64,000 nt of DNA from Candidatus Pacearchaeota archaeon. GTDB taxonomy: Archaea; Nanobdellota; Nanobdellia; Pacearchaeales; JAPDKA01. Below, one piece after another: positions 1,152 through 44,542 of the stretch (within the stretch, counting starts at the first letter, position 1; every line of letters begins with the position of its first letter). The notes below the pieces were generated by a model. The model ran no database searches. It saw only the letters and a program-made list of their open reading frames with translations, and had not been told where the DNA came from. The DNA is taken from contig JAWAZI010000001.1 in assembly GCA_038817835.1 (NCBI GenBank), positions 44,948 through 108,947 on the forward strand, given 5' to 3'. A program made the translations under genes and the position numbers.

Positions 1152-3212
1152 CTATTGTGATAAAGCTGCATTAATTAAATTATCTGGCCATCCAGCATTC
1201 TTTAATTTATTTCTTATTTCTTCATCACTCATTCCTATGTTTCTTGCTTTTTTTACATAATCTATTAATTCTGATGGTAATTCTTCTTCTACTTTGATTT
1301 CAATACCTTTTCTTCTTGATAAAAGTAAGATTAAAATTACAACAATAATTATTATTAAAAGTAATATTAATCCTAAAAATGGAAGATATTGTTGTAAATT
1401 TTTTTCTTTCTTTTTTGGAACAGTTGGTGGTGCTTGTTGAACTTCACAAGCTTGAACAGTTTGAGGTTTATCATATGTTGTTCCACAATTATTTAGATCT
1501 ATACATTCTCTAGTTTGAATTCCAGTATCCGGATCACAAATACTCCATTCTGAACATTGCCAATTTTCTATACATTGATATTGACAAGGTTTTGATTCTG
1601 TTGGCTTAATTAAAGATTGTAAGCAATTATAATTTCCCCCACAACCAGTTGTATTCCACCATTCAATATCAGATTGACTACAATTATTAATATCAATACA
1701 TGTTCTATATTGATAATTATTTGGTTGACAATCTTCCCAATTACTACATACCCAATGAGGGAAACAATATGATGGAGCACCTCCTCCACCACCACCTCCT
1801 CCACCAGTAGCACATCTATTTCCACTGCATCCATATTCACACTCTCTAAGTGGAATATAATGATCATCTAATTTAATTTCATCTGGAGCAAGATTATTTT
1901 CTACTAATTTTTTTATTACTTCGTTATAGCTATAGCAATAAATAGAAAAACCAAAAGTAAAGTCAATAGAAGCACTTGGACATGGATCTATGATTGGATT
2001 AACAGACCCCTGCCTATTTGATGCTATGTCTGATGCTATGTTACTTGCATTTATACATTTTCCATAGGCATCTTCTCCTTTATATATTAACCAAACTTTT
2101 TTTGTTTTATTATATTCAGTATTATTTACACAAACATAATTCCAGCTACATTCAATATTTTTTATACTAACATTAGTTTCTATACTATTTATTTCTACTT
2201 CATGGATTTTAGAATAAGGTGGTGGTACACCAATAGAAAAATTTACAGGTTCCTTAGATGGTATAGATGGAGGTATTGATGGGCATGGGCATTCTCGATA
2301 GCAACTTACTTGCGTATTTCCTTGACATATTGCAAAACATGCATTTGGATAAGTTATATTATCTATTCCACATACAGGACTCCAATTAATAGCATAATTG
2401 GTACATATAGTTATATAAGGTAGATTTGGTTGGTCCTGAGGAATTTGTTGTGCCATTCTACAAATTGGATTTGAGAAATTCCATGGAGTTTCCCATCTAT
2501 AAACTAATCTAAATGTTATATTAGCTTTTCCATCCCTATTTTTATCTATTAAAGGTATATTTAATTTTTCTAAATTAATAGTGTATATATTCGAGAAACC
2601 AAAACAAGAATATTTATTTATACATTGTTGTAGAGCTTCTTCATCAGAAGGAGACCAATAACATGAGGTTATATTTTTACATATACATATTTGATTTATT
2701 ATATTAATTCCATCTGGACATAAAAATTCTTTTATTTGACCAGCAGAGCATGATGTTGTTGCTGTTAATTTTGCTGGTTTTTCAGATTTAGCTATGATAT
2801 TTATTCGTGGTAAAGATTCACACCAAGTAAAACCCCAACCTTTTTGTGCAGGAGCTTTACCATTAACATTTCTAAAAACACCAAAACTTAAATTTCCTTT
2901 TCCAGCTTGATCACTTAAATTTATTATTTCTGCAAAAGTTAAATTTTTTACATTTATTCCTTCAACATAAATTTCAAAGGTTGCATTAACAGGAATTAAA
3001 TCTTTATGTGTATTATTTTTATTTAATGAAATAAACAAATTTCCCTTTAATTTTTCTCCAGCATAATATCCTTCTTGAAGAGAAGGTTGAAATACAATAT
3101 TTGCTGTTATTCCTTTATTATAAAAAGGATAAAGAAGAAAAAAGAAAAATAGATATAAAAATATTAATAAAAAAATTATTAAAACTGGGTTTATAGGAGA
3201 TTTTTCTTTCAT
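1152..3212 (-). CDS. large Cys-rich surface protein: N-terminal anchor, Kazal-like module, poly-Gly linker, two TSP1-like WxCSxW repeats, C-terminal TM and short cytoplasmic tail
   Basis: 686-aa ORF. Hydrophobic N-terminus. PVCGIDNITYPNAC resembles the Kazal signature. G9 tract. CFPHWVCSNWEDC..YRTCIDINNC and CIENWQCSEWSICDPDTGIQTRECIDLNNC repeats. TM LPFLGLILLLIIIIVVILILLL followed by a basic/acidic tail. Confidence 0.8.
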   Translation of the reverse strand: MKEKSPINPVLIIFLLIFLYLFFFFLLYPFYNKGITANIVFQPSLQEGYYAGEKLKGNLFISLNKNNTHKDLIPVNATFEIYVEGINVKNLTFAEIINLSDQAGKGNLSFGVFRNVNGKAPAQKGWGFTWCESLPRINIIAKSEKPAKLTATTSCSAGQIKEFLCPDGINIINQICICKNITSCYWSPSDEEALQQCINKYSCFGFSNIYTINLEKLNIPLIDKNRDGKANITFRLVYRWETPWNFSNPICRMAQQIPQDQPNLPYITICTNYAINWSPVCGIDNITYPNACFAICQGNTQVSCYRECPCPSIPPSIPSKEPVNFSIGVPPPYSKIHEVEINSIETNVSIKNIECSWNYVCVNNTEYNKTKKVWLIYKGEDAYGKCINASNIASDIASNRQGSVNPIIDPCPSASIDFTFGFSIYCYSYNEVIKKLVENNLAPDEIKLDDHYIPLRECEYGCSGNRCATGGGGGGGGGAPSYCFPHWVCSNWEDCQPNNYQYRTCIDINNCSQSDIEWWNTTGCGGNYNCLQSLIKPTESKPCQYQCIENWQCSEWSICDPDTGIQTRECIDLNNCGTTYDKPQTVQACEVQQAPPTVPKKKEKNLQQYLPFLGLILLLIIIIVVILILLLSRRKGIEIKVEEELPSELIDYVKKARNIGMSDEEIRNKLKNAGWPDNLINAALSQ

Positions 3213-3288
3213 TTTAATTAAAATTTTTATAATTTTTTCTTTAAAAATTTTTGTATTAAAAATTTAAAAAATTCAAAGTATTATTTTT

Positions 3289-4176
3289 TTGATGAGTTTT
3301 AAAAAATTTAATAAAATATGTAATGATATAAAAAAAGTTAAAATTCAAGGTGCAGAAAATATTGCAAAAGCAGTTTTAGAGGCATTAAAAATAAAAAATG
3401 ATAAAAATGCAATAAAGAAATTAATCTCTTTAAGGCCAACAGAACCTGCAGTAAGAAACACAATCGCAAAAATTTTAGAAAAAATAGAAAAAGGTTTAAG
3501 TTGGGAAAAAGCTATAGAAGAAATGAAGGAATATTTTGAAATATCAGATAAAAAAATTTGTGAATATGGAGAAAGAATTATAGAAAATAATTCTATTATT
3601 TATACTCACTGTCATAGTTCTACAGTTGAAAAAACTTTAAAGTTTGCAAAAAAATTAGGAAAAAATTTTACTGTTTATATTACAGAAACAAGACCTTTAT
3701 TTCAAGGTAGAATCACTGCAGAAAATTTAGCAAAAGCAGGAATAAAAGTTGTTTTAGGGGTTGATAGCAATGCATTTAATTTTTTAAAAAAAGCAGATAT
3801 GTTTTTATTTGGAGCAGATGCTATAACAAGTGAAGGAGATATAATAAATAAAATTGGTACAGCTATGTTTACAGAAATTGCTCAAAAATTAAATGTTCCC
3901 TGTTATTGTTTAAGTTTGAGTATAAAATATGATCCTATAACTAGATATGGCTATCAAGAAGAAATAGAACAAAGACCAGCAAAAGAAATTTGGAATAAAA
4001 AAATTAAAAATTTAAAAATAGTAAATCCAGCTTTTGAGATTGTTAAAGCAAAAAATATTAATGCTATTATTAGTGAATATGGTATTTTAGCTCCAACAGC
4101 TTTTGTAGAAATAGCAAATAAAGAATTTGATATTAAAAAGTTAACATCTTTAAAAAATGGTTTATGGAGGATATAA
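3289..4176 (+). CDS. ribose-1,5-bisphosphate isomerase-like protein (eIF-2B alpha/beta/delta family)
   Basis: eIF-2B-family blocks (TETRPLFQGR, GADAITSEGDIINKIGT). Overlaps the RuBisCO gene immediately downstream by 20 nt. Functional call relies on that context (archaeal AMP/nucleoside salvage pathway). Confidence 0.75.
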   Translation: MMSFKKFNKICNDIKKVKIQGAENIAKAVLEALKIKNDKNAIKKLISLRPTEPAVRNTIAKILEKIEKGLSWEKAIEEMKEYFEISDKKICEYGERIIENNSIIYTHCHSSTVEKTLKFAKKLGKNFTVYITETRPLFQGRITAENLAKAGIKVVLGVDSNAFNFLKKADMFLFGADAITSEGDIINKIGTAMFTEIAQKLNVPCYCLSLSIKYDPITRYGYQEEIEQRPAKEIWNKKIKNLKIVNPAFEIVKAKNINAIISEYGILAPTAFVEIANKEFDIKKLTSLKNGLWRI

Positions 4177-5458
4177 ATTTATAGAGAAAAAATACAATCT
4201 AAGAGAAACAGATTTAATTGCTTTATTTTATGTTGATCCTGCCAAAGGGATTAGTTTCGAGAAAGCACTAGAAGCAATAGCATCTGAAAGCTCGGTTGGA
4301 ACATGGACAAAATTAAAAACAATACAAGAGAAAAAGCAAAACAAATTAAAAGCAAAAGTTTTTTGGTATGACAAAAAAAAGAAACTATGTAAAATTGCTT
4401 ATCCTATAGAACTTTTTGAATTATCTAATATACCACAATTGCTTAGTAGTGTTGCAGGAAATATTTTTGGTATTAAAGCAGTAGAAAATTTAAAACTTCT
4501 TGATATTAAGTTACCAAAAATTTATATTAAATCTTTTGAAGGACCTGAATTTGGAATTATTGGAGTTAGAAATTTATTTAATGTTAGAGATAGACCATTA
4601 CTTGGGAGTATAATAAAACCTAAATTAGGTTTAAATGCTAGTGAACATGCTAAATTAGCTTATAAAGTTTGGGTTGGAGGGGTAGATATAATTAAAGATG
4701 ATGAAAATTTAACTAATCAACCTTTCAATAAATTTGAGGAAAGAATTATTAGAAGCTTAGAAGCAAGAGATAAAGCTATAAATGAAACAGGAGAAAGGAA
4801 AGAATATATGCCAAATATAACAGGACCTATAGATTTAATGATGGAAAGAGCCGAATTTGTAAAAAATCAAGGAGGAAATTATGTTATGGTAGATGTTGTT
4901 ACTGTTGGATTTTCTGCTTTACAGTTTTTAAGAAAAATAACAGGAAAATTAAAACTTGTTATACATGCTCATAGAGCAATGCATGCAGCTTTTACTAGAA
5001 AAAAGAATCATGGTATAAGTATGCTTGTTTTAGCAAAACTTTTAAGGCTTGTTGGTGTTGATCAATTACATATTGGCACTATAGTAGGAAAGATGGAAGG
5101 TTCAAAAGAAGAAGTTTTAGAAATAAAAAAAGAAATTGAAAAAGAAATTATTGATGAAAATATTAAAGCTAAAGTTTTATCTCAATTTTGGTATAATATA
5201 AAACCTGTTTTTCCTGTTGCTTCAGGTGGATTACATCCAGGTGTAGTTGAAGATTTAGTTAGATATTTTGGTAAAGATATCATAATTCAAATGGGAGGCG
5301 GCATTCACGGACATCCAAAAGGAGCTTTATATGGGGCAATTGCCGCTAGACAAGCAATAGATGCTATAATGAAAGGAATAAAAATTAAAGAATATGCAAA
5401 AACACATAGGGAGCTTAGTATAGCTTTAAAAAAATGGGGAAAGAAAAGAGTAAAATAA
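4157..5458 (+). CDS. rbcL: ribulose-1,5-bisphosphate carboxylase large subunit, form III-like
   Basis: Diagnostic RuBisCO blocks: IIKPKLGL, GGVDIIKDDENL (carbamylated Lys context), HAHRAMHAAF, GGLHPG, MGGGIHGHP. No small subunit nearby. Confidence 0.95.
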   Translation: MVYGGYKFIEKKYNLRETDLIALFYVDPAKGISFEKALEAIASESSVGTWTKLKTIQEKKQNKLKAKVFWYDKKKKLCKIAYPIELFELSNIPQLLSSVAGNIFGIKAVENLKLLDIKLPKIYIKSFEGPEFGIIGVRNLFNVRDRPLLGSIIKPKLGLNASEHAKLAYKVWVGGVDIIKDDENLTNQPFNKFEERIIRSLEARDKAINETGERKEYMPNITGPIDLMMERAEFVKNQGGNYVMVDVVTVGFSALQFLRKITGKLKLVIHAHRAMHAAFTRKKNHGISMLVLAKLLRLVGVDQLHIGTIVGKMEGSKEEVLEIKKEIEKEIIDENIKAKVLSQFWYNIKPVFPVASGGLHPGVVEDLVRYFGKDIIIQMGGGIHGHPKGALYGAIAARQAIDAIMKGIKIKEYAKTHRELSIALKKWGKKRVK

Positions 5459-6078: not shown

Positions 6079-6088
6079 TAACAAAATT

Positions 6089-6376: not shown

Positions 6377-6393
6377 AAAAATTTTAAAATTTT

Positions 6394-6879: not shown

Positions 6880-6902
6880 TTAATTTTTAAAAAAGAGGCG
6901 AA

Positions 6903-8564
6903 ATGAGAATAAATATTTTAATTGCAGGTGAAGCCGGGCAAGGAATTGACAAATTATCAGATTTAATTTGTAAAATTATAGCTAGTAGAGGCTTATATGT
7001 TTTTAATTATAAAGATTATCAAAGCTTGATAACTGGTGGTATAAATTTTAATGTTATAAATATAAGTAACCAAAAAAATTTTTGCTATGATAAAAAATAC
7101 GATTTTGCAATATTTTTAGATAAAAAACTAATTAATTTATTTTTGAAAGATATAAAATATAAAGCTATAATAATTGGAGAAAAAGGAATAAAAGATGAAA
7201 TAAAATCAAAAAGATATAAATTTATTGAGGTTGATGTTGATAATTTAATAAAGAAATATAATCTAAAAAAAATAGTAAAGAATACTATTTTTCTTGGAAT
7301 TATAGCAAAAATATTTGGATTTGATAAGGATTGTTTCAAAATAGTTCAAGATAATTTTGAAACTTTAATTAAAGATAATACTTTAGCATTTGAGATAGGT
7401 TATAATTATGAAAATAAGATTAAATTTAAATTACCAAAATATAAAAGGAATATATTTTATTTTAAAGGAAATGAAGCAATAGCAAAAGCATTCGAGGAAA
7501 CTATAGATATATATTTTGCATATCCTATGACTCCTTCAACATCCCTTTTACATAATTTAGCAAAAGATAAAATATTTACATTCCAGCTAGAAAGTGAGAT
7601 AGCAGTTATAAATGCTGCTTTAGGAGCCAGCTTTGCTGGAAAAAGAGTTGCTGTAGGTACTAGTGGTGGAGGATTTGCTCTAATGAATGAAGCTTTGAGT
7701 TTAGCTGGAATGGCAGAATTACCTATAGTTATTTATGTTGCTATGCGTTATGGCCCATCAACAGGTGCTCCTACTTATAGTAGCCAGGGAGATTTGAAAT
7801 ATATTATTAATGCTGGCCATGGAGAATTTGCAAAAGTTGTTTTAAGTTTAGATGGAAATAATATTTTTCAACAAGTTATAAATGCTGTATATTTGGCTTA
7901 TACTTATAGAATCCCAGTTATTTTAATTGGAGATAAAATAATTGCAGAAAGCGGATATAGTTTTAATGAAGCAGAAATAAAGAAATTTATAAATAATGCA
8001 AAAAAAATAAGAGAAAGATTAGAAAAACAAAATAAAAAACTGAAGAAAAATAATAAATTAATAAAAAATTATCCATTCAATAATCCATTTTTTATTCTGC
8101 CTAAACTAGGAGAGCATATATTCAAAGTTACAAGTTACGAACATGATGAATATGGTTTTAATAAGGATGATGTAGAAACTATTAAAAAAATGGGAAAAAG
8201 AAGAAAAGAGAGAATCGAAAGAATAAATAAAATAATAAAAAATGGTTATAGTATTTATGGAAATAAAAATTCTAAAAATTTATTGATTGCTTACGGAAGT
8301 GTTGCAAATAGCCTTATAGAATTTTCAAAAAATAAAAATTTTAAAGTTATTGCAATAAATTGTTTAAAGCCTTTTCCTGATATAAGCAAAGAAATAAAAA
8401 AAGCAAAAAAAGTTTTTGTATTTGAAGATTCATTAACATGTCAGCTTGCAGATTTAATTAAAGAAAATTGTTGTATAGAAATAAAAAATAAAATAACTAA
8501 TCATACTGGTAGAATTTGGCTTGTAGAAGATATTGAAAATATGTTAAAATGGAAGAAAATTTAA
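6903..8564 (+). CDS. 2-oxoacid:ferredoxin oxidoreductase, fused gamma-alpha subunit
   Basis: N-terminus INILIAGEAGQGIDKLS is the gamma-subunit signature. From about aa 185, GNEAIAKAF...AYPMTPST...GTSGGGFALM...PIVIYVAMRYGPSTG is the alpha subunit. Confidence 0.9.
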   Translation: MRINILIAGEAGQGIDKLSDLICKIIASRGLYVFNYKDYQSLITGGINFNVINISNQKNFCYDKKYDFAIFLDKKLINLFLKDIKYKAIIIGEKGIKDEIKSKRYKFIEVDVDNLIKKYNLKKIVKNTIFLGIIAKIFGFDKDCFKIVQDNFETLIKDNTLAFEIGYNYENKIKFKLPKYKRNIFYFKGNEAIAKAFEETIDIYFAYPMTPSTSLLHNLAKDKIFTFQLESEIAVINAALGASFAGKRVAVGTSGGGFALMNEALSLAGMAELPIVIYVAMRYGPSTGAPTYSSQGDLKYIINAGHGEFAKVVLSLDGNNIFQQVINAVYLAYTYRIPVILIGDKIIAESGYSFNEAEIKKFINNAKKIRERLEKQNKKLKKNNKLIKNYPFNNPFFILPKLGEHIFKVTSYEHDEYGFNKDDVETIKKMGKRRKERIERINKIIKNGYSIYGNKNSKNLLIAYGSVANSLIEFSKNKNFKVIAINCLKPFPDISKEIKKAKKVFVFEDSLTCQLADLIKENCCIEIKNKITNHTGRIWLVEDIENMLKWKKI

Positions 8565-9346
8565 AAAGTAAAGAGAAAATTACATGGTGTCCAGGATGTA
8601 CTAATTTTTTTATTCTTAATGCTTTTGAAAAAGCATTGAATGAATTAATTAAGCAAGGAATGAAAAAAGAAGAATTTGTTTATGTTAGTGGTATTGGTTG
8701 TCATGGAAAAATTCATGATTATTTGAATATTTCAAGTTTTAATGCTTTGCATGGAAGAGTATTGCCAGTAATTTTTGGAATAAAAATTGCGAATCCTAAA
8801 TTAAAGGTTATTGGTTTTGCTGGAGATGGAGATGTATATAATGAAGGAATAGAACATTTAATACATATGGCAAAATATAATATTGATTGTACTTATGTTA
8901 TTCATGATAATCAAATATTTGCTTTGACTGTTGGTCAACCAACTGCAACAACACAAAAAGGATTAAAAAGTAAAAGTTTTAAGAAAGTTGTGCAAGATAC
9001 ACCATTAAACCCAATTAAATTAATGTTAAGTCTTGATACAAGTTTTGTTGCTAGAGCTTATGCTTTAGAACATGAACATTTGAAAGATATATTAAAAAAA
9101 GCAATAATGCATAAAGGTTTTAGCTTTGTTGAAGTTTTGCAGCCATGTATTGTTTTTAATGATACGAGAGAATTTATAGGTAATAGAATTTATAAGCTAG
9201 AAGAAGAAAATCATGATGTTAATGATTTTAATCAAGCATGGAAAAAAGCTGAAGAATGGAATTATTGTTATGATGATTCGAGAATTCCTATAGGAATTTT
9301 TTATATAAAACAAAAAGAAACTTTTGAAGAAAAATATTTAAAATGA
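8549..9346 (+). CDS. 2-oxoacid:ferredoxin oxidoreductase, beta (TPP-binding) subunit
   Basis: WCPGCTNF, SGIGCHGK, GFAGDGDVYNEG (TPP GDG motif). Overlaps the upstream alpha gene. Confidence 0.9.
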   Translation: MEENLKSKEKITWCPGCTNFFILNAFEKALNELIKQGMKKEEFVYVSGIGCHGKIHDYLNISSFNALHGRVLPVIFGIKIANPKLKVIGFAGDGDVYNEGIEHLIHMAKYNIDCTYVIHDNQIFALTVGQPTATTQKGLKSKSFKKVVQDTPLNPIKLMLSLDTSFVARAYALEHEHLKDILKKAIMHKGFSFVEVLQPCIVFNDTREFIGNRIYKLEEENHDVNDFNQAWKKAEEWNYCYDDSRIPIGIFYIKQKETFEEKYLK

Positions 9347-10848
9347 ATCTTAAGGAAAGATTAAAACAACCACAATGTCAAATTGGTAGTAAAGGTTTTT
9401 GTTGTAAAAATTGTTTATTTGGACCATGTTTATTAATTAATGAAAAAAGTAAAGGTGTTTGTGGAGCAAATCAAGAATTAGTTATAAGTAGAAATCTATT
9501 AAGATTTATAGCTAGTGGAACAGCAAATCATTGTGGTCATGCATTACATATGTTAAATGCAATAAATGAAAAATTTCCAATAAACTATATAGAGAATAAA
9601 TCTCCAAAATATTTGCAAAATTTATGGAAAAAACTTGGAATATTACCAAAAGTTGGTTATGAACATTTCAAAGATATAAGCGAATCTCTTCATATGAGTA
9701 GTTTTGGAGTTTCATCTGATTATAAGCAATTATTATTAAATTGTTTAAAATTAGGAATAATTGATGGTTATTATGGATTATATCTATCTACAGAACTAGA
9801 AGAAAGAATATATGGAAAACCAAAAGTTAGAGAAGCTTTTGTTGATTTGGGAGTTATAAACAAAGATAAAGTAAATATAGCTATTCATGGACACTTACCT
9901 ATATTTGCTGAAGCAATAACAAAAGAATCGAGAAAATATAAAGATATTAATATTATAGGCGTTTGCTGTAGTGGAGCTTTTTTATTATCAAAACTTGGAA
10001 TACCACAAGCAGCTAATATAATACTGCAAGAAGATGTTATTAACACTGGCTTAATTGAAGTTATGGCTGTTGATCTTCAATGTGTAATGCCATCCTTATC
10101 TGATTTAATTGAATGTTTTCATACAAAATTAATAACAACTAATGAATTAGCAATGATGAAAAATGCTATTCATATGTCAATAAAAACAATAAAAGATGCG
10201 AAAATAGTTGCAAAAAAAATAATAAAAATTGCAAGAAATAATAAAAAAAATAGAAATAAAATATATGAAAAAAAATTTGAAGAAATAAAAAATAGAAAAG
10301 TAAAAGCTGTAGTTGGTTTTGATGAAAGAATATGGAAAAATATTAATAATAGATTAAAAGATAAAAAAATTAAAGGAGTTTTAGCTTTTATTGGTTGCGT
10401 AAATGCTAGATGTAATGAAAAAGAATGGATAAAAATAATAAATGAACTAAAAAAAGATTATGTAATTTTAACTACAGGTTGTATGGCTTTTGAGCTAGCA
10501 AAAAATGGATTACTTGATGGGAAAAATATTTTTCATTTAGGAAGTTGTGTTAATAATTCAAGAATTGCAGAAATTTTTAAAAATATAGCAAATGCAAATA
10601 AAGTTAAAATTACAGATATGCCATTTCTTGTTTCTGCCCCAATGCCAATAACAGAAAAATGCTTTGCAATAGGTTTTTTCTTTGCTTCTTTGGGTGTAGA
10701 TGTACATTTTGGTTATAATACTATTTTGAGAAGTAATAAAAATATAAAAAATTTCTTGGAAAAATCATTAAAAAAATATTTTCACTCAAAAATATTTTTG
10801 GAGGAGAATGCATCAAATTTTAAAGAAAATTTAAAATTTAGTTTTTAA
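9343..10848 (+). CDS. cooS: compact CooS-like Ni-dependent carbon monoxide dehydrogenase homolog
   Basis: N-terminal CQIGSKGFCCKNCLFGPC...GVCGA matches the CooS D/B-cluster Cys pattern. The candidate C-cluster ligand contexts are IAIHGH, GVCCSG, LQCVMPS, IGCVNA, TTGCMA and GSCVNNSR. ATGA start/stop overlap with the OFOR beta gene. Only 501 aa. Confidence 0.8.
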   Translation: MNLKERLKQPQCQIGSKGFCCKNCLFGPCLLINEKSKGVCGANQELVISRNLLRFIASGTANHCGHALHMLNAINEKFPINYIENKSPKYLQNLWKKLGILPKVGYEHFKDISESLHMSSFGVSSDYKQLLLNCLKLGIIDGYYGLYLSTELEERIYGKPKVREAFVDLGVINKDKVNIAIHGHLPIFAEAITKESRKYKDINIIGVCCSGAFLLSKLGIPQAANIILQEDVINTGLIEVMAVDLQCVMPSLSDLIECFHTKLITTNELAMMKNAIHMSIKTIKDAKIVAKKIIKIARNNKKNRNKIYEKKFEEIKNRKVKAVVGFDERIWKNINNRLKDKKIKGVLAFIGCVNARCNEKEWIKIINELKKDYVILTTGCMAFELAKNGLLDGKNIFHLGSCVNNSRIAEIFKNIANANKVKITDMPFLVSAPMPITEKCFAIGFFFASLGVDVHFGYNTILRSNKNIKNFLEKSLKKYFHSKIFLEENASNFKENLKFSF

Positions 10849-11888
10849 TCTATCAATACAAGATTTTTACCTAATTGTTTTGCTTTATATAATAATTTAT
10901 CTGTTCTTTCTATAAAATGATTTAATTTCTCATTTTCTTTTATTTCTGCAACACCAAAGCTTGCAGTTATAAATCTTTTTGATTTTCTTGCATAATAAAA
11001 ATTTTCTATTTCTTGTCTTATAACTTCAGCAATTTCTTTTGCAATATCTAGTGATGCCTCTATAATTATTGCAAATTCTTCACCACCATATCTACATGCA
11101 TAATATTTTATATTATATTTTTCATACTTACTTAGAATATCTTTTACAGTTGATCCGATTTCCTTTAATAAATCATCTCCTGCGAGATGGCCATAAACAT
11201 CATTATAATTTTTAAAATAATCAATATCAAACATTATTAATGATATTTTCTTTTTTTCTTTTATTAATTCTTCTAATTTATCGATAAAAAATGATTTATT
11301 ATATAAGCCAGTTAAACTATCAATAATTGCTTTTTTACTTTCTTTTTCATATAGTTTTGCATAAAGTTTTGTAACTTTTTTTTCTTTTTCTTCTAATTCT
11401 TTTTTCATTTTTATTTTTTCTATTCCTATTGCTGTAAGATTTGCAATACTACTAACTAATCTTAAATCAAATTTACTAAATCCATCTAATTTTTGGAATA
11501 AGAATATTGCACCTATAATATCAGAATATAACATTAAACTTACAACAAGAATATTTTTTATATTAAATTTTCTTAACCTTTTATGTTTTTTTGTATTATT
11601 TATTATTATTGCTCCACCTTTTCTCATTACATCACTTGCAATTTCAAGTAATAAATCTCTAAAATCTTCTTTAATTTCTCTTGCTAAAATTTCATAATAT
11701 TTTATATTTAAATTATCATTATCTTTCAAAACAAAAAATACATATTTAGATTTTATATTAAATTTAATTAAATCGCTAACCTTTGAAAGAAATATATCTA
11801 AATTATCAGTACTTCCCATTATTTTATATAAATCTCTAAGTACTTTGATTTCTTTTTGACTATATTCAAAAATTTTTTCTTTATTCAT
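10845..11888 (-). CDS. GAF-domain diguanylate cyclase (GGDEF domain, GGEEF active site)
   Basis: C-terminal DSLTGLYNKSFF...MFDIDYFKNYNDVYGHLAGD...RYGGEEFAII...SFGVA is a canonical GGDEF domain (GGEEF at 11073-11087). The N-terminal ~150 aa is GAF-like. A coiled-coil linker joins them. Confidence 0.85.
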   Translation of the reverse strand: MNKEKIFEYSQKEIKVLRDLYKIMGSTDNLDIFLSKVSDLIKFNIKSKYVFFVLKDNDNLNIKYYEILAREIKEDFRDLLLEIASDVMRKGGAIIINNTKKHKRLRKFNIKNILVVSLMLYSDIIGAIFLFQKLDGFSKFDLRLVSSIANLTAIGIEKIKMKKELEEKEKKVTKLYAKLYEKESKKAIIDSLTGLYNKSFFIDKLEELIKEKKKISLIMFDIDYFKNYNDVYGHLAGDDLLKEIGSTVKDILSKYEKYNIKYYACRYGGEEFAIIIEASLDIAKEIAEVIRQEIENFYYARKSKRFITASFGVAEIKENEKLNHFIERTDKLLYKAKQLGKNLVLID

Positions 11889-11942
11889 TTTTACTTCTCT
11901 ATAGTTATAACTTTTAAGTTTTTGTTATTTAAAAATTTTTCG

Positions 11943-12371
11943 TTATAACTTATATATCTTATTAATTTCTTTTTCTAGTATTTTTATTTCATTAAGAATT
12001 TTTTCAGCTTCATTAGCTAATAAAGATTTAGAGAAATATAACTCATCAATCCTTTTTTCTAGAATTTCTTTTGCTTCATCTATTGTTGTTTCTATAACAA
12101 TACCTTGCCCCAAATTAACAAAAACTTTATCTTTATCTTTTATTTCAGCTTTTACAAAAATACCTTCTCCAACATTTGCTAAAATTTCTTTTTCTTTATT
12201 ATATTTCATTTCATCTAAATTAATTTTTATATTTGTTATTTCCAAAATACTTTGGTCAATCATTTTGTATTGTTCTTCAATTTTTCTCAATTCTTGATCA
12301 AGTAAAAGAAGTTTCAAACTTTTATCTTCTATTTCTTTTTTTAATTTTTCTTCACTTTTCTTTTTTTCCAT
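11943..12371 (-). CDS. pfdA: prefoldin alpha subunit
   Basis: Coiled coil, then beta-hairpin block (VGEGIFVKAEIKDKDKVFVNLGQGIVIE), then coiled coil. Adjacent to L14e as in many archaea. Confidence 0.8.
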   Translation of the reverse strand: MEKKKSEEKLKKEIEDKSLKLLLLDQELRKIEEQYKMIDQSILEITNIKINLDEMKYNKEKEILANVGEGIFVKAEIKDKDKVFVNLGQGIVIETTIDEAKEILEKRIDELYFSKSLLANEAEKILNEIKILEKEINKIYKL

Positions 12372-12657: not shown

Positions 12658-12670
12658 TTTATTTTAAATA

Positions 12671-13144: not shown

Positions 13145-13173
13145 AATTTTTAAATAAATAATTTTTTAAAAAT

Positions 13174-27993: not shown

Positions 27994-28570
27994 TAAAATG
28001 AATTTTTTTGAAGAATTTTTTGATTTACTTGTGAATATTGAAGCTAAAAATTTAATAAAAAAAGAAAAACCAAAGATTGAAGAAATTAAAGAAAAAAAGA
28101 AAGAAGAGGAAAAAATAGAAAAACTAGAAGATGAATCATTAAAAAAAATTAAAAGAGAACCATTAATAATTAGAAAATTTCCCCCAACTTTTGATATTGG
28201 AAAAATAACAGCAAAAGAACTTATCCCTAAAAAAGAATTCATTCCAAGCTTAGAATTAATAAAAGAAATACCAGTAGAAAGAAAAATTGAAAGATTTAAT
28301 TTTGGAAAAATAAATGATATTGTATATAATACTGATGTTCAACAAGTAAAAATTATTAATGATGAAAAAATTATTGTAATTTATAAAAATGGTAAAAGTG
28401 AAGAAAAAGATATAATAATGAATAAAGATGAAATTCTTGAATTATTAAATAAAATATCAAAAATTACAAAAATACCCCTTGATAAAGAGTTTGGTTGTTA
28501 TTTTGAAGATTTTTTTATAGAAGCAAAATTTAATGAAAAAATTTTAGTAAATATAAGAAGGATAATATGA
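27965..28570 (+). CDS. hypothetical protein; C-terminal half weakly resembles the N-terminal domain of GspE/VirB11/FlaI-type secretion ATPases
   Basis: Likely start MNFFEEFF at 27998. Weak pattern VKIINDEKIIVIYKNGK...NKDEILELLNKISKITKIPLD. ATGA overlap with lgt. Confidence 0.5.
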   Translation: MRKKRKKKFNKMNFFEEFFDLLVNIEAKNLIKKEKPKIEEIKEKKKEEEKIEKLEDESLKKIKREPLIIRKFPPTFDIGKITAKELIPKKEFIPSLELIKEIPVERKIERFNFGKINDIVYNTDVQQVKIINDEKIIVIYKNGKSEEKDIIMNKDEILELLNKISKITKIPLDKEFGCYFEDFFIEAKFNEKILVNIRRII

Positions 28571-29316
28571 TTGAGTATAAACCAATAAATATTCTTTTTA
28601 GTATTGGAAAATTAAATATTTATTCTTGGGGGACTATTGTAGCTTTAGCATTTTTAATTGTTTATATATTATGTATAAGAAAAATAAAAAAAGAAAAATT
28701 GGAAGAAGGAATAATTAATGATTTATTTATTATAACTATTATTTTTGGTTTTTTGGGAGCAAGATTTTTATATGCAATTGAAAATGGTTTTGATAATTTT
28801 TATTCAGTATGGCAAGGTGGCTTAAGCATATATGGTGGTTTACTGCTTGGTTTTTTTTCTATATTTATGTATTTAAAAATAAAAAAAATTTCTTTAAGAT
28901 ATATAGAAATAATTACATTATTTTTGCCTATAGGTTTAGCAATTGGTAGATTAGGATGTTTTATAAATTGGGATGATTATGGTATACCTACAAATTTGCC
29001 ATGGGCAATTAAAGTTGGTGATGATGCTCCAAGACATCCAAGTCAAATTTATGAAATAATTGCAAATTTAGGAATTTTTTTAATTTTATTTTTTATAGAT
29101 AAAAAAGATAGAAAAAAAATTAAAAAAAATAAAGAGGATGAATTAAAATTAACAAAATGGTTTTTATTTTTATATCCAATTACACGGCTATTTCTTGATT
29201 TTTTACGTGACTCGGCAAGATATGTTGGCCTTACTTTAGCTCAGTGGATATCTATAGCAATATTAGCTTGTTTATTTTTATTAATCTTAATAAAAAAATT
29301 TAAAAATATTAAATAA
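28567..29316 (+). CDS. lgt: prolipoprotein diacylglyceryl transferase homolog
   Basis: Blocks match E. coli Lgt recalled from memory: FSIGKLNIYSWG, VWQGGLSIYGGLLLG, GLAIGRLGCFINWDDYG, PRHPSQIYE. About 7 TMs. Confidence 0.85.
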   Translation: MIEYKPINILFSIGKLNIYSWGTIVALAFLIVYILCIRKIKKEKLEEGIINDLFIITIIFGFLGARFLYAIENGFDNFYSVWQGGLSIYGGLLLGFFSIFMYLKIKKISLRYIEIITLFLPIGLAIGRLGCFINWDDYGIPTNLPWAIKVGDDAPRHPSQIYEIIANLGIFLILFFIDKKDRKKIKKNKEDELKLTKWFLFLYPITRLFLDFLRDSARYVGLTLAQWISIAILACLFLLILIKKFKNIK

Positions 29317-36749: not shown

Positions 36750-38579
36750 CTATTTAGTTTTGTTTATTGTTTTGTTACTTGTATTAATAGCTTCTAAAAT
36801 TTCACTTATTTCCTCAATTTCATTTGTTAAATTTTCTTCTTTTTCTTTTGGCTTAAATAAGTTTTTGAAGAAATTAATTATTTTTTGGAATATTCCCTCT
36901 TTTGGCTTTTCTTTTTCTACTACTTTTTCAATCTCAATTTCTTTTATCTCTATTTTTTCAGCAACTATAACATTTACTGTTTTATTTACTATAATACTAG
37001 TTTCATTTAATCTTATACCTAAAATTAATGTATAATTTCCAGTAGGTGTAGTTAATGATGGTGCTATATAAAGATAAATATTTTCACCTTTTCCTGGTTC
37101 AATTTCAATTGTTGAAGGACTAACACTTGTAAATCTATTTGCATTTCCACTAACTTCAATGAAATATCTTGCATTTTTTATTCCTTTATTTTCAATACCA
37201 ATCACTGCAACATGCGTTTTATCTTTTTCTACTTCGATTTTTTCTTTATCTATTTTTAATTCTGGTTTGAAACAGTCTATATAAGTTAATGTCTCTAAAG
37301 TTAATTTTGCTATTACCATTACTTCAGAATTTTTATCTTTTGCAATTATTTCTATATTATATTCTCCAGGTTTTGTTGAAAGGAAAGGTGTAGCTTCCAA
37401 ATTTAATATTGCTGATTCATTTGGTTTCAATCTTACTGAATTATTATATAATTTAATCCATTCTGGGGCCTTTGCTATTATTTCATAGTCTCCTTCTATT
37501 TCACCTTTATTTTCTAATTTTAGTTTATATTCATTAACTAACCCATTACATATTTTATCTTTCTCTTTATCAATCAAAAATTTAAATTCTGCTTTATGGC
37601 ATTCTTTAATTTTTACTTTTATTTTTTCTTTTGCTAATATTTTTCCTTTCTCTGATAAAGTTTCTATTTCTAGATCATATTCTCCTTCCTTTTCTCCAAA
37701 CTTTGGATTTAAATAAATACTTATATTTCTTTTTTCTTTTGCATTTAAAGATAATCTATTCAATTCTATATTTGCAAAGTTTGGAGCTTTGAAGTTTATC
37801 TCATAAAAGTTTGCATCAATCCCTTTATTTTCTATATAAATTTTTGCAATTTCTTTTTTTCCATCACATATTTCATAAAAATTTTTTTCTGCTAAAATAG
37901 TATAACTGAAACAATTTTTTACTTTTATTTTTCCTATTTGAGTTGCTAAAGCATTGCTATCTAAAGAACTAACTTTTAAAGTATAACTATATTCTCCCTC
38001 GTTCTCTTCACAACTTGGATTAAATGTAATTATTATATCTTTTTCTTCATCTGGATTTAATTGAATTAAATCAGTCCCTAATTTTGCAAATCTTGCAGCT
38101 TCACCACTAATTTCTATTTTATATCTTTCTTTATATAATCCATTATTTTTTATTCTAGCTTTTGCACTAATGCTTTCACAAGCACAAACTTCTTTAGACT
38201 CAAGAGTTACTATAACTTTATTACAATTCTCAACTATTATATCATGTCTTATTTGCTTTGTTTCATAGCCATTAGATATTGTAACTAATATATTATAATT
38301 TCCTGGCAAAACATTGCTTGATGGGGTTATATATAAATAAAAACTTCTTACTTGACCTTGTGCTAAATAAAATGATGATGGCAATATAGTTGCAAAACTT
38401 GATGCAGTTCCTGCAACTACTGCTTCATAACTAGCAGATTTATCTGCACTAACTTTTTCTTCTATAACTATTGTAGAAGATGGACATACAACATTTGTTA
38501 TTACATTACTTTCAATACTAAAACTTTTTACCAATGGCAAAAGTAATACTATAAATAACAATATCAGTTTACTTTTCAT
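36750..38579 (-). CDS. secreted surface protein with about 5 tandem ~95-aa Ig-like (CARDB/NEW3-like) repeats
   Basis: Signal peptide MKSKLILLFIVLLLPLVKS. Recurring module C..(x)..C...N.G.....Y.I......(W/F)..L......L.P.E......(L/I).P......GEY...(I/L). C-terminal N-x-T sequons. Confidence 0.7.
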   Translation of the reverse strand: MKSKLILLFIVLLLPLVKSFSIESNVITNVVCPSSTIVIEEKVSADKSASYEAVVAGTASSFATILPSSFYLAQGQVRSFYLYITPSSNVLPGNYNILVTISNGYETKQIRHDIIVENCNKVIVTLESKEVCACESISAKARIKNNGLYKERYKIEISGEAARFAKLGTDLIQLNPDEEKDIIITFNPSCEENEGEYSYTLKVSSLDSNALATQIGKIKVKNCFSYTILAEKNFYEICDGKKEIAKIYIENKGIDANFYEINFKAPNFANIELNRLSLNAKEKRNISIYLNPKFGEKEGEYDLEIETLSEKGKILAKEKIKVKIKECHKAEFKFLIDKEKDKICNGLVNEYKLKLENKGEIEGDYEIIAKAPEWIKLYNNSVRLKPNESAILNLEATPFLSTKPGEYNIEIIAKDKNSEVMVIAKLTLETLTYIDCFKPELKIDKEKIEVEKDKTHVAVIGIENKGIKNARYFIEVSGNANRFTSVSPSTIEIEPGKGENIYLYIAPSLTTPTGNYTLILGIRLNETSIIVNKTVNVIVAEKIEIKEIEIEKVVEKEKPKEGIFQKIINFFKNLFKPKEKEENLTNEIEEISEILEAINTSNKTINKTK

Positions 38580-38698
38580 TTTTCATATATTATTGAATTT
38601 TCTGTTATCACTTAAAAAGTTTAATGATATTTAAATTTTTTTCTTAAATTTTACCACCTATATTAAATAAAAATAAAAAAAGAAAAAAATTTAAAAAA

Positions 38699-39967
38699 TT
38701 AGTAGTAAATTTCTTCTGGTTTTTCTTCACTTTCTTTTCTTTTTACTAACATTACTATCAATGTAATAAGCAAAGCTAATGCTATTATTGCTAATATTGC
38801 TATTATTATCCAAATCCATATATTCTCTCTAATTACTTTTTTAGCTTCAACTTCTGCAATTAAAGTTTGAGTAGCTATTATATTACCATTACTTATTGCT
38901 TGAACACTGAATATATGACTTCCTTCTAAAGCTTTTTCATCAACATTTAATGTTAATATTACTGATTGACTTGATTTTGGAGCAAGAGAAATTATTGGTT
39001 TATCAAAGTTAGCTGTAGCCCATCCTGTTAATCCTTCAACTTTAAACTCTAGATTAACTAAATTATCTCCTAAATTTGTTAAAACAATTGTATATTCTAC
39101 TTTATCTCCTGCATTAACTTTTTTTGTTTTTTCTATAGCAACTATATTAACAATTTCTTTTTCTTCTTTTTCATCCTTTGTTTCTTTTACTCCAATAACT
39201 TCAAAAATTTTAGATGTTTCTTTACTAACATCATCATTGTAAGCTTTAACTATCAATGTATATGTTCCTGTTTTTGCTGATTTTGGAATATCAAAATTAA
39301 TGTTTACAACTTTTGTATCTCTTTCAGTATTATCTGCATAATCATATGGATATATATCTCCTATGTATATTGTTTTTACCATATTTAATTCTGGAATCTC
39401 TGCTTTTACATATACATCCTCTAATTTATGACTTCCTCTATTTTTTATTACTGCAATAGCATTTAATCTTTCTCCAGCATTAACTACTGTTGGTAAAGCC
39501 AAATCTAAACTCAATATCTCAACATTATAATTTTGTCTCTGTATAGCTAATCTATATGTTTTATAACTTTCTCCTGGAACTTGTTGATTACTTGTAATCA
39601 TTACATGTAATGTATATATTCCTTCTTCCATGTCATTAGGCAAGTTTAAAAATAATGATTTACTATACATTCTTCCTGGATAAATATCAAATCTTTCTGT
39701 TTCTGCTTTTATTTCTTTTCTATATCCATCAATCCATGCTTTCACTTTTACTTCTGTTGGATATGATGGAATCCAAGATGTAGTTTCAAATAATACTCTA
39801 ACACTTAATAATGTTCCTCTTTCAACACTAAAAGTATCTCCTTCACTAACATAATGTCCATTCAAATAAACTTCCATCCAACTTATACTTGTTGCACTTG
39901 CTAGATTTATCATAGCAAATACTGAAACTATTACTAAAGCTATCAAGCTTAGCAATTTGCCTTTCAT
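38699..39967 (-). CDS. surface (S-layer-like) protein with signal peptide, Ig-like repeats and C-terminal TM anchor
   Basis: Signal MKGKLLSLIALVIVSVFAMINLASA. CARDB-like blocks (VIKNRGSHKLEDVYVKAEIPEL, GTYTLIVKAYN). C-terminal TM IWIWIIIAILAIIALALLITLIVMLV plus a charged tail. Confidence 0.7.
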   Translation of the reverse strand: MKGKLLSLIALVIVSVFAMINLASATSISWMEVYLNGHYVSEGDTFSVERGTLLSVRVLFETTSWIPSYPTEVKVKAWIDGYRKEIKAETERFDIYPGRMYSKSLFLNLPNDMEEGIYTLHVMITSNQQVPGESYKTYRLAIQRQNYNVEILSLDLALPTVVNAGERLNAIAVIKNRGSHKLEDVYVKAEIPELNMVKTIYIGDIYPYDYADNTERDTKVVNINFDIPKSAKTGTYTLIVKAYNDDVSKETSKIFEVIGVKETKDEKEEKEIVNIVAIEKTKKVNAGDKVEYTIVLTNLGDNLVNLEFKVEGLTGWATANFDKPIISLAPKSSQSVILTLNVDEKALEGSHIFSVQAISNGNIIATQTLIAEVEAKKVIRENIWIWIIIAILAIIALALLITLIVMLVKRKESEEKPEEIYY

Positions 39968-44392: not shown

Positions 44393-44393
44393 G

Positions 44394-44502
44394 TGGGCCC
44401 TGGCGGATTTGAACCGCCGACCTCCGGTTAGCCTAGATTCCCGCCAAATATGGCGAGTGGTCATATAAGACCGGCGCTCTAACCTGGCTGAGCTAAGGGC
44501 CC
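44394..44502 (-). tRNA. tRNA-Ile (anticodon TAT) with 34-nt intron at canonical 37/38 position (intron 44430-44463)
   Basis: Acceptor GGGCCCT/AGGGCCC. D-arm GCTC-AGCCAGGTTA-GAGC. Anticodon stem CCGGT/ACCGG. Loop CTTATA^intron^A. Hand-folded BHB: 4-bp helix CUUA/UAGG flanked by 3-nt bulges UA^U and CU^A. Intron hairpin CTCGCC-ATATTT-GGCGGG. Confidence 0.75.
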
Positions 44503-44542
44503 TCCTCATTTATTTATAATTTTATATTTTTTAATTTTTTCC

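What the first reader, a model, noticed from the sequence alone, without database searches (positions are those of the whole stretch)
10845..11888. GAF-GGDEF diguanylate cyclase in an archaeon
The C-terminal 160 aa is a textbook GGDEF domain with an intact GGEEF active site (11073-11087) and the upstream D-x-L-T-G-L-x-N-R/K-like block (DSLTGLYNKS). An RxxD inhibitory I-site five residues upstream of GGEEF is absent (the sequence reads IKYYACRYGGEEF). The N-terminal half is GAF-like. Cyclic-di-GMP signalling is regarded as essentially bacterial, and GGDEF domains are very rare in archaea. No EAL, HD-GYP or PilZ gene is visible in the window. The gene converges on the CooS-like gene so tightly that the two stop codons share one TTAA (10845-10848).
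Basis: partly seen in the sequence, partly recalled or inferred. Interest (0 to 1): 0.6.

Follow-up and report, generated by a model that had tools for sequence, protein, structure and literature searches.

The report
Conserved diguanylate cyclase in Pacearchaeota archaea
A tiny hot-spring archaeon carries a well-conserved gene for the enzyme that makes cyclic-di-GMP, a signal thought to be almost purely bacterial; the gene is truly archaeal, but what reads or removes the signal is unknown.

Summary
Window 10845..11888 (-) encodes a 347-aa protein with three parts: a GAF domain, a 50-residue helix and a full-length GGDEF domain (Pfam E=1.6e-36). It has GGEEF and the canonical GTP and metal motifs, and no RxxD I-site.

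It is not contamination:
- The window has 21-29% GC throughout.
- It holds an archaeal ribosomal-protein cluster, an intron-bearing tRNA, prefoldin and Kae1.
- Cluster mates at 90% identity or more are 'Candidatus Pacearchaeota archaeon' proteins from hot-spring MAGs.

The protein has about 20 full-length orthologues (41-80% identity). Every one whose context I read sits among archaeal genes, in two conserved gene orders. The group is monophyletic in 186 of 200 bootstraps and is far from every bacterial GGDEF protein (E 1e-70 against 1e-31). dN/dS against an 80%-identical variant is 0.20, and all catalytic residues are invariant.

So this is one old acquisition, inherited vertically and kept under selection. 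It is most likely a dimeric, ligand-gated cyclase that is not inhibited by its product.

No EAL, HD-GYP, PilZ, MshEN or c-di-GMP riboswitch lies in the window or the flanks I could reach. One distant lineage has a GAF-HD-GYP gene 3 kb away.

The protein kind is ordinary and the host is unusual. NCBI already annotates such proteins, and one 2021 paper mentions archaeal GGDEF hits in passing.

The parts
10845..11888 (-). Complete gene for the 347-aa GAF-helix-GGDEF protein (predicted sensor diguanylate cyclase)
   Evidence: ORF. Pfam and NCBIfam hits. Twenty full-length orthologues. dN/dS is 0.20 against L009.
11475..11888 (-). N-terminal helix plus GAF sensor domain (aa 1-138)
   Evidence: GAF_2 is above its cut-off. 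The AF2 model of aa 1-165 has pLDDT 90.6. Foldseek TM-scores are 0.70-0.78 to the GAF domains of PmGH HD-GYP (4mcw), NifA (8jrc), Lcd1-cAMP (5w10) and PDE2A.
11325..11474 (-). Single long helix of 50 residues (aa 139-188) linking GAF to GGDEF; presumed dimeric signalling stalk
   Evidence: The AF2 model gives H139-188. The best full-length fold matches are coiled-coil-linked cyclases: IsPadC 5llw, Dcsbis 4zmu and DgcB 6ttr.
10848..11324 (-). GGDEF catalytic domain (aa 189-347)
   Evidence: PF00990 E=1.6e-36, full profile. WspR 3i5c scores E=2.9e-24 and PleD 1w25 9.4e-19. Invariant residues are listed.
11073..11087 (-). GGEEF active-site (A-site) codons, aa 268-272
   Evidence: Read. Invariant RYGGEEF in all 20 orthologues.
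10845..10848 (.). TTAA shared by the two convergent stop codons (cyclase gene and CooS-like gene)
   Evidence: ORF ends. The same overlap is seen in L009 and L092.
11922..11945 (-). Conserved block TAACGAAAAATTTTTAAATAACAA: the prefoldin stop codon followed by a BRE/TATA-like element, about 35-55 nt upstream of the cyclase ATG
   Evidence: The block is identical in window and L009, although the rest of the spacer differs. The promoter function is inferred from only two sequences in a very A+T-rich genome.

Best explanation
Window 10845..11888 (-) is a genuine gene of a Pacearchaeota (DPANN) archaeon from hot springs.

Origin. The gene descends from one old transfer of a bacterial-type GAF-GGDEF gene. 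It has since been inherited vertically and kept under purifying selection.

Predicted mechanism (inferred, not shown).
- The protein is a homodimeric sensor diguanylate cyclase.
- An unknown small ligand or state is sensed by the N-terminal GAF domain.
- The signal passes along the 50-residue helical stalk.
- The stalk sets whether the two GTP-loaded GGDEF half-sites can face each other and condense 2 GTP into c-di-GMP.
- The RxxD I-site is missing in the whole family, so the enzyme is not shut off by its product. Output must be limited by the input signal, by expression, or by a degradation route not yet identified.

Shown here: gene, domains, motifs, fold, archaeal context, orthologue clade, selection.
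Inferred: dimerisation, GAF gating, c-di-GMP as the product.
Unknown: GAF ligand, phosphodiesterase, receptors, physiological output.
For: Domains and motifs.
- GGDEF E=1.6e-36 over the full profile, and GAF_2 above its cut-off.
- Aligned to the canonical cyclase WspR, the protein keeps DxLTGLxN, DxDxFKxYND, GHxxGD, RYGGEEF and YKAKxxGKN.
- D190, N197, D221, D223, K226, N229, D230, H234, D238, R266, GGEEF and K337 are invariant in 20 orthologues.

Fold.
- AF2 pLDDT is 86, with GAF, a 50-aa helix and GGDEF.
- The nearest solved folds are sensor cyclases with helical linkers, including the GAF-GGDEF protein Dcsbis.
- The GAF fold has TM-scores of 0.70-0.78.

Archaeal host.
- Archaeal ribosomal and informational genes and an intron-bearing tRNA are on the same contig.
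- GC of the gene region is 0.214, against 0.21-0.29 across the window.
- Cluster mates are Pacearchaeota proteins.
- The same locus appears in independent assemblies and in hot-spring metagenomes of two studies.

Vertical inheritance.
- Orthologues have E 1e-209 to 1e-70, then there is a gap to 1e-31.
- Monophyly is recovered in 186 of 200 bootstraps.
- There are two conserved gene orders. One is OFOR/HAD/e2b2/Kazal, in the window, L005, L007 and L092. The other is RsmB-PUA | GGDEF | MetAP | CDC48, in L001, L003, L010, L012, L095 and L096.
- dN/dS is 0.20 overall, 0.16 for GAF and 0.28 for GGDEF.
Against: - No enzymatic or expression data exist. Three metatranscriptomes from the same study gave essentially no reads, even for the neighbouring ribosomal-protein genes.
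- No phosphodiesterase, PilZ, MshEN or c-di-GMP riboswitch was found in the 64-kb window or in about 210 kb of related archaeal loci. The one exception is an orphan HD-GYP in L011. A functioning signalling circuit is therefore not demonstrated.
- The position matching the phosphate-binding Arg of the GRN motif is Lys in the window protein and in P0002. The other 18 orthologues have Arg.
- The GAF ligand cannot be inferred. The nearest GAF folds bind very different ligands.
Confidence: 0.78

Rival explanations
1. The gene is bacterial DNA that entered the contig through mis-assembly or mis-binning, so it is not archaeal.
For: Galperin et al. 2018 (PMC5847659) raised this concern for bacterial-type signalling proteins in archaeal MAGs in general. 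The nearest relatives outside the clade are all bacterial.
Against: - The gene is embedded, with a 4-nt overlap on one side and a 54-nt spacer on the other, in a 64-kb stretch with archaeal markers on both sides.
- Its GC content is the same as its surroundings.
- The same junctions occur in independent assemblies and in a variant with 84% nucleotide identity.
- Orthologues at 42-61% identity lie in archaeal contexts in at least 10 other contigs.
Confidence: 0.01
2. The enzyme is active, but c-di-GMP is not an internal second messenger of the archaeon. It is made for, or acts on, a partner organism. DPANN archaea live attached to hosts. Alternatively the signal is read by receptors unlike any bacterial one.
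For: - No PDE, PilZ, MshEN or riboswitch was found in any reachable sequence, except in one lineage.
- The family lacks the product-inhibition site. That fits bulk production better than a tightly buffered internal pool.
- Large Big/CARDB/Kazal surface proteins lie nearby.
Against: - Only about 85 kb of this genome could be inspected, so the absence of partners is not established.
- Many bacterial cyclases also lack the I-site (established knowledge).
- No export route is evident.
- L011 has a canonical GAF-HD-GYP gene 3 kb from its cyclase gene. That argues for internal turnover in at least that lineage.
Confidence: 0.12
3. The GGDEF domain makes a different product (3'3'-cGAMP or c-di-AMP, as Hypr GGDEF enzymes do), or it acts only as a GTP-binding or regulatory module without signalling output.
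For: Product identity cannot be read with certainty from sequence. GRN is changed to GKN in the window protein. There is a weak Cas10 palm-domain similarity (21.7 bits, below the cut-off of 27).
Against: - The residue that selects guanine is Asp238, in GHLAGD, and it is invariant in the family. Hypr enzymes carry Ser or Thr there (established knowledge: Hallberg et al. 2016, cited in PMC10086821).
- Degenerate, non-catalytic GGDEF domains usually lose GGEEF or the metal-binding Asp residues. Here all are invariant under dN/dS of about 0.2-0.3.
- The Cas10 hit is the expected distant palm-domain homology, and there is no CRISPR context.
Confidence: 0.06
4. The gene is a recently acquired, decaying passenger gene with no function in the archaeon.
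For: Small DPANN genomes do carry scattered bacterial-type genes. Lgt, a Lit-like gene and LspA were seen here.
Against: - There is an orthologue clade with within-clade distances of up to about 1 substitution per site.
- Gene order is conserved and the ORFs are intact.
- Catalytic residues are invariant and dN/dS is 0.20.
- Base composition is fully that of the host.
Confidence: 0.02

Closest known systems
Dcsbis (PA2771) of Pseudomonas aeruginosa, a GAF-GGDEF diguanylate cyclase (PDB 4zmu)
   Same: Same two-domain architecture and almost the same length (341 aa against 347 aa). It is a full-length Foldseek match, E=6.9e-18.
   Different: Only 22% identity. Dcsbis is bacterial. Its GGDEF domain was crystallised with c-di-GMP bound (4zmm), whereas the archaeal family has no RxxD site.
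Lcd1 of Leptospira interrogans, a cAMP-activated GAF-GGDEF cyclase (GAF domain PDB 5w10)
   Same: It has the best sequence-profile match to the archaeal GAF domain (E=6.8e-6). It is also among the top fold matches (TM 0.72, 23% identity). It shows that a GAF ligand can switch on a GGDEF output.
   Different: I did not test whether the cAMP-binding residues are conserved. The ligand of the archaeal GAF domain is unknown.
WspR, PleD and DgcB-type canonical GGDEF cyclases (PDB 3i5c, 1w25, 6ttr)
   Same: All catalytic motifs align. The GGDEF fold superposes at about 3 A rmsd. A helical stalk precedes the domain, as in DgcB and in GCN4-WspR.
   Different: Those enzymes are driven by receiver (REC) domains and have the RxxD product-inhibition site. 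The archaeal protein has a GAF input, no I-site and a 5-residue insertion at that place.
IsPadC, the bacteriophytochrome-activated cyclase of Idiomarina (PDB 5llw, 6et7)
   Same: It is the best overall structural match (E=1.5e-19). A GAF-containing sensor is joined to GGDEF by a long dimeric helix, which serves as the model for regulation through the stalk.
   Different: IsPadC is 670-690 aa, with a PAS-GAF-PHY module and a bilin chromophore. The archaeal protein has a single GAF domain, and I found no evidence that it binds a chromophore.
Previously noted archaeal GGDEF proteins: Methanocella arvoryzae CAJ37382, the REC-GGDEF (inactivated) protein of Ca. Micrarchaeum, and unexamined BLAST hits in DPANN and Asgard archaea
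   Same: GGDEF domains in archaeal genomes (PMC5847659, PMC8646023).
   Different: Those cases were single proteins, degenerate domains or unverified hits. Here a catalytically intact family is shown to be monophyletic, syntenic and under purifying selection on verified archaeal contigs.

Membership tests
GGDEF-domain diguanylate cyclase (PF00990 / TIGR00254) | Domain HMM match above the curated threshold over the whole domain | tested here: met
   PF00990 scores 125.9 bits against a cut-off of 23.8, covering profile 1-160 of 161. TIGR00254 scores 125.9 against 37.4.
GGDEF-domain diguanylate cyclase (PF00990 / TIGR00254) | Intact GG(D/E)EF active-site motif | tested here: met
   RYGGEEF at aa 266-272, invariant in 20 orthologues.
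GGDEF-domain diguanylate cyclase (PF00990 / TIGR00254) | Metal-, phosphate- and guanine-binding residues (PleD D327, K332, N335, D344, R366, K442, R446 by established numbering) | tested here: met
   DIDYFKNYND, GHLAGD, R266 and YKAK are all present and align with WspR. They are invariant in the family. The last Arg is Lys in the window protein and Arg in 18 of the 20 orthologues.
GGDEF-domain diguanylate cyclase (PF00990 / TIGR00254) | GGDEF fold with a dimerising N-terminal module | tested here: inconclusive
   The monomer model has pLDDT 86, with a 50-aa helix between the domains. Its fold matches dimeric sensor cyclases. The dimer itself was not modelled.
GGDEF-domain diguanylate cyclase (PF00990 / TIGR00254) | Synthesis of c-di-GMP from 2 GTP | not testable with these tools
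   This needs an enzyme assay.
Product-inhibited (I-site) diguanylate cyclases | RxxD motif five residues upstream of GG(D/E)EF | tested here: not met
   The window has N-I-K-Y at that place. None of the 20 orthologues has RxxD.
Hypr GGDEF (cGAMP-producing) enzymes | Ser or Thr replacing the guanine-specifying Asp of the GHxxGD motif | tested here: not met
   Asp238 is invariant in the family and aligns with the Asp of WspR. The meaning of this position comes from established knowledge (Hallberg et al. 2016).
GAF sensor domains | GAF HMM match and GAF fold | tested here: met
   GAF_2 scores 33.4 bits against a cut-off of 28.6. The model has pLDDT 90.6 and TM-scores of 0.70-0.78 to solved GAF domains.
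GAF sensor domains | Identified ligand | tested here: inconclusive
   The top fold neighbours bind cAMP, cGMP, 2-oxoglutarate, bilins or haem, and none stands out.
Complete c-di-GMP signalling module (cyclase + phosphodiesterase + receptor) | EAL or HD-GYP phosphodiesterase in the same genome | tested here: inconclusive
   None in the 64-kb window or in about 20 kb of extra flank. One canonical GAF-HD-GYP gene lies 3 kb from the orthologue in L011 only, and it has no archaeal relatives.
Complete c-di-GMP signalling module (cyclase + phosphodiesterase + receptor) | PilZ or MshEN receptor, or a c-di-GMP-I/II riboswitch | tested here: inconclusive
   No Pfam PilZ or MshEN hit in the scanned window ORFs. 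No Rfam hit other than tRNA in the window, and none in 115 kb of related loci.
Cas10/Cmr2 palm-domain cyclases | Match above the family threshold, and CRISPR-Cas context | tested here: not met
   PF22335 scores 21.7 bits, below its cut-off of 27. No cas gene families appeared in the Pfam scans of the window ORFs.

The most novel reading that the evidence does not exclude
A branch of DPANN archaea (Pacearchaeota/Woesearchaeota) runs a c-di-GMP pathway that has the bacterial synthase but none of the known bacterial phosphodiesterases or receptors. The signal would then be read by archaea-specific effectors still unknown, or be used at the symbiont-host interface, for example to control attachment through the large surface proteins these genomes encode.
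Probability: 0.2. Interest if true: 0.8.

Novelty: new member of a known kind. Interest (0 to 1): 0.5.

Why it matters
Reviews still treat c-di-GMP as essentially absent from archaea. They have asked that GGDEF hits in archaeal MAGs be confirmed on real archaeal contigs (PMC5847659, PMC10086821).

This locus gives that confirmation for one family:
- the cyclase is catalytically intact;
- it is fixed in conserved chromosomal positions;
- it is under purifying selection;
- it occurs across a diverse group of ultra-small archaea.

The family offers a concrete protein for testing c-di-GMP synthesis by an archaeal enzyme. It also gives a defined set of small genomes (0.6-0.7 Mb contigs exist) in which to look for how such a signal is degraded and read.

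If receptors of a new type exist, a genome this small is a good place to find them.

Tried and rejected
1. Expression. Three metatranscriptomes from the study that holds the DNA were laid on window 9000-13500. They gave 0, 1 and 0 reads, even over the prefoldin and L14e genes. The organism was simply not sampled at the 3-5% of reads inspected, so the result says nothing.

2. A matching archaeal phosphodiesterase family. I searched with the GAF-HD-GYP protein of L011. It has no archaeal relatives. The best hits are bacterial at 38% identity or less, so it is a lineage-specific extra and not a partner of the family.

3. Phyletic count in GTDB species representatives. It returned one archaeal orthologue (L012), so no distribution can be derived from it.

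4. Donor lineage. In the neighbour-joining tree of the GGDEF domain the sister group is unresolved (35% or less of replicates). The best full-length bacterial matches are scattered over Elusimicrobiota, Omnitrophota, Planctomycetota, Clostridia and Acidobacteriota. A first tree script timed out.

5. GAF ligand. Sequence-profile and fold searches give only generic GAF neighbours.

6. c-di-GMP riboswitches. None in the window or in 115 kb of related loci.

7. Second GGDEF paralogue. The short SAGDEF protein of L001, L003 and L096 has no counterpart in the window.

8. Right-hand extension. Extending the window through the terminal AAA ORF failed, because that ORF is a fragment of CDC48. Extension through L3 worked.

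9. Functional link to the CooS-like neighbour. Rejected, because the adjacency exists only in the window's own sub-lineage.
Full report
**What is there**

Window 10845..11888 on the minus strand is an intact 347-codon ORF with an ATG start.

- Pfam finds a full-length GGDEF domain at aa 187-342. It covers profile positions 1-160 of 161, with E=1.6e-36 and 125.9 bits against a cut-off of 23.8.
- Pfam also finds an N-terminal GAF domain. GAF_2 scores 33.4 bits against a cut-off of 28.6, and GAF scores 23.9 against 22.4.
- NCBIfam agrees: TIGR00254 scores 125.9 bits. The protein resembles PleD-, DgcA- and SiaD-type cyclases without reaching any equivalog cut-off.
  - GGEEF lies at nt 11073-11087.
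  - DSLTGLYNKS is present.
  - There is no RxxD five residues before GGEEF.
  - The two convergent stop codons share TTAA at 10845-10848.

**Is the host an archaeon, and does the gene belong to it?**

- The window has 21-29% GC throughout, and the 10-12 kb segment has 21.4%, so there is no compositional island.
- The same 64 kb holds many archaeal genes:
  - prefoldin, an L14e-like protein and an EMC3/YidC-like insertase directly upstream of the gene;
  - S12, S7, an EF-1alpha-type GTPase, L10e, L35Ae and Kae1;
  - type III RuBisCO with its e2b2 partner;
  - an intron-bearing tRNA;
  - a ribosomal-protein cluster with L19e, L18/L5e, S5, L30/L7e, SecY (with the Sec61 plug) and L3.
- Beyond the right end lie CDC48, SepF, diphthamide synthase, L37ae, L11 and RadA.
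- Proteins at least 90% identical to the window's L3, SecY, RbcL, MetRS, Kae1, S7, S12 and ThyX are NCBI MAG proteins labelled Candidatus Pacearchaeota archaeon.
- The gene sequence is found in hot-spring metagenomes of two studies.
- The same junctions recur in an NCBI MAG contig (L092). They also recur in a variant with 84% nucleotide and 80% protein identity from another run: prefoldin, a 54-nt spacer, the cyclase gene, then the 4-nt overlap with the CooS-like gene (L009).
- Contamination and chimeric assembly are therefore excluded.

**A conserved archaeal family**

The database search gave 20 full-length proteins of 340-359 aa, with 41-100% identity and E from 1e-209 to 1e-70. After these there is a jump to bacterial proteins that match only about half the length, at E of about 1e-31. 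The members that carry a name are called 'sensor domain-containing diguanylate cyclase [Candidatus Pacearchaeota archaeon]'. One GTDB representative is labelled Candidatus Woesearchaeota (L012).

All contexts I could read are archaeal, and they fall into a few arrangements.

- **First order.** The 58-61% identical orthologues converge on the OFOR beta and alpha genes. These are followed by HAD, e2b2 and a Kazal-domain protein, which is the gene order of window 1152-9346. The CooS-like gene is missing there.
- **Second order.** Six lineages at 42-48% identity share RsmB-PUA | GGDEF | methionine aminopeptidase | CDC48. Their wider surroundings include FEN1, PolB, SMC and aminoacyl-tRNA synthetase genes.
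- **Third context.** One lineage has the gene between S8e and TFIIB.

In a neighbour-joining tree of the GGDEF domain with 100 bacterial relatives, the archaeal group is one clade in 186 of 200 bootstraps. Its sister group is unresolved. Against L009, dN is 0.117 and dS is 0.577. That gives a ratio of 0.20 overall, 0.16 for GAF and 0.28 for GGDEF.

The simplest history is a single old acquisition from an unidentified bacterium, followed by vertical descent under purifying selection.

**Is it a working cyclase, and how would it work?**

- Aligned with the canonical cyclase WspR, the protein keeps every motif known to bind GTP and metal and to carry out catalysis: DxLTGLxN, DIDYFKNYND, GHLAGD, RYGGEEF and YKAKxxG(K/R)N.
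- These residues are invariant across the 20 orthologues. The only variation is Lys for Arg in the last motif, in the window protein and its closest relative.
- The Asp of GHxxGD is the residue that specifies guanine. Hypr GGDEF enzymes that make cGAMP have Ser or Thr there (established knowledge). So c-di-GMP is the expected product.
- AlphaFold gives a confident model with mean pLDDT 86. It has an N-terminal helix plus GAF (aa 1-138), one uninterrupted helix (aa 139-188), then the GGDEF fold.
- The nearest solved structures are dimeric sensor cyclases in which such a helix forms the signalling stalk. They include IsPadC, DgcB, the GCN4-WspR fusion and the GAF-GGDEF protein Dcsbis of P. aeruginosa.
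- The GAF model (pLDDT 90.6) matches GAF domains of very different ligand specificity. Among them are the cAMP-binding GAF of the Leptospira cyclase Lcd1 and the GAF of the HD-GYP enzyme PmGH. The ligand therefore remains open.
- My reading is as follows, and it is inferred from homologues, not shown here. The protein is a homodimer. The state of the GAF domain sets the stalk geometry, and so decides whether the two half-sites can meet to make c-di-GMP.
- The whole family lacks RxxD, and there is a 5-residue insertion at that spot. The enzyme should therefore not be product-inhibited.

**The rest of the pathway**

- I scanned most ORFs of the window against Pfam, using concatenated ORFs. I also ran my own GGDEF and HD-GYP HMMs over all stop-to-stop ORFs of the window and 11 related archaeal loci, about 210 kb in all.
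  - No EAL, HD-GYP, PilZ or MshEN was found in the window.
  - Rfam finds only tRNAs in the window and nothing in 115 kb of related loci.
- There are two extras in relatives:
  - a short second GGDEF protein (207-217 aa, motif SAGDEF) lies 4-7 kb away in L001, L003 and L096;
  - a canonical GAF-HD-GYP protein (HD ... HHERYDGNGYP) lies 3 kb from the orthologue in L011.
- That HD-GYP protein has no archaeal relatives at all, so it is a lineage-specific addition.
- Whole genomes could not be fetched. Whether the window's organism can degrade or sense c-di-GMP is therefore open.

**Transcription**

- A 24-nt block containing CGAAAAA-TTTTTAAATA lies about 35-55 nt upstream of the ATG. It is identical in the window and L009, although the rest of the spacer differs. 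It looks like a BRE/TATA promoter, which would give the gene its own promoter downstream of prefoldin.
- This rests on two sequences in a very A+T-rich genome.
- Metatranscriptomes were uninformative.

**Comparison with what is known**

- The protein is an ordinary member of the GGDEF cyclase family with a common GAF input. What is unusual is the host.
- Galperin et al. 2018 knew a single archaeal GGDEF domain, and they warned that bacterial-type regulators in archaeal MAGs might be contamination (PMC5847659).
- Römling 2022 wrote that the presence of GGDEF proteins 'need[s] to be confirmed in archaeal contigs' (PMC10086821).
- Braun et al. 2021 found no c-di-GMP in Haloferax or Sulfolobus, but mentioned more than 300 archaeal BLAST hits, many of them in DPANN and Asgard lineages (PMC8646023).
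- Full-text searches found no paper that analyses a Pacearchaeota or Woesearchaeota GGDEF protein.
- This locus therefore supplies the missing confirmation for one family, without being a new kind of system.

**Verdict**

The finding is a new member of a known kind, of moderate interest. Its value is that it gives a clean, testable case of a bacterial-type second-messenger synthase fixed in ultra-small archaea, with the downstream half of the pathway unknown.

Noticed in passing
window 28567..29316 (+), 43829..44509 (-); L005 1653..2075, L007 3337..3828: Bacterial-type lipoprotein maturation genes sit in this archaeal lineage. Lgt matches PF01790 at E=4e-50, and a Lit-like transacylase domain lies in the window. 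LspA (Peptidase_A8) lies near the cyclase orthologue in L005 and L007. This is another set of bacterial-looking genes apparently fixed in Pacearchaeota.
   Followed up: partly
window 44394..44502 (-): Rfam calls a 109-nt tRNA (61.5 bits) that ARAGORN missed, probably because it carries an intron. It overlaps the first ~115 nt of ORF 43829..44509, so that ORF's true start is probably further downstream.
   Followed up: no
window 9343..10848 (+): The CooS-like 'Prismane' protein is short (501 aa). It scores 306 bits against TIGR01702, below the cut-off of 478, and lacks the N-terminal ~150 profile positions. NCBI calls its orthologues 'hypothetical'. It is present only in the window's sub-lineage (window, L009, L092) and absent at the same spot in L005 and L007.
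   Followed up: partly
window 3289..5458 (+) and 6903..9346 (+): An e2b2 (IF-2B family) gene and type III RuBisCO, the AMP-salvage pair, are followed by a HAD hydrolase, a flavin reductase and a two-subunit 2-oxoacid:ferredoxin oxidoreductase. This block is syntenic with the 58-61% identical relatives, except that RuBisCO is not called in L005 or L007.
   Followed up: partly
L001 15174..15827 (-), L003 18327..18950 (-), L096 14925..15569 (-): A second, short GGDEF-domain protein (207-217 aa) has SAGDEF in place of GGDEF and no sensor domain. It lies 4-7 kb from the GAF-GGDEF gene in three lineages. No counterpart exists in the window.
   Followed up: partly
L011 8040..9134 (-): A canonical GAF-HD-GYP protein (364 aa, HD and HHERYDGNGYP intact) lies 3 kb from the cyclase orthologue, between TFIIB and Kae1. 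It has no archaeal relatives, and its best hits are bacterial at 38% identity or less. It looks like an independent acquisition that completes c-di-GMP turnover in that one lineage.
   Followed up: yes
window 1152..3212 (-), 36750..39967 (-); L092 11865..19458: Large secreted or surface proteins are present. One 686-aa protein has a Kazal domain. Others of 609 and 422 aa have Ig-like/CARDB-like repeats. A 2000-aa Big/CARDB protein lies just outside the left end of the window. These are candidate adhesins of a host-attached archaeon.
   Followed up: no
window 11922..11945 (-): A 24-nt block, TAACGAAAAATTTTTAAATAACAA, is identical in the window and in the 84%-identical L009. It has a BRE/TATA-like sequence between prefoldin and the cyclase gene.
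   Followed up: partly
whole window: The window is a hot-spring organism with only 21-29% G+C. The gene sequence was found in eight hot-spring metagenome runs from two studies.
   Followed up: partly
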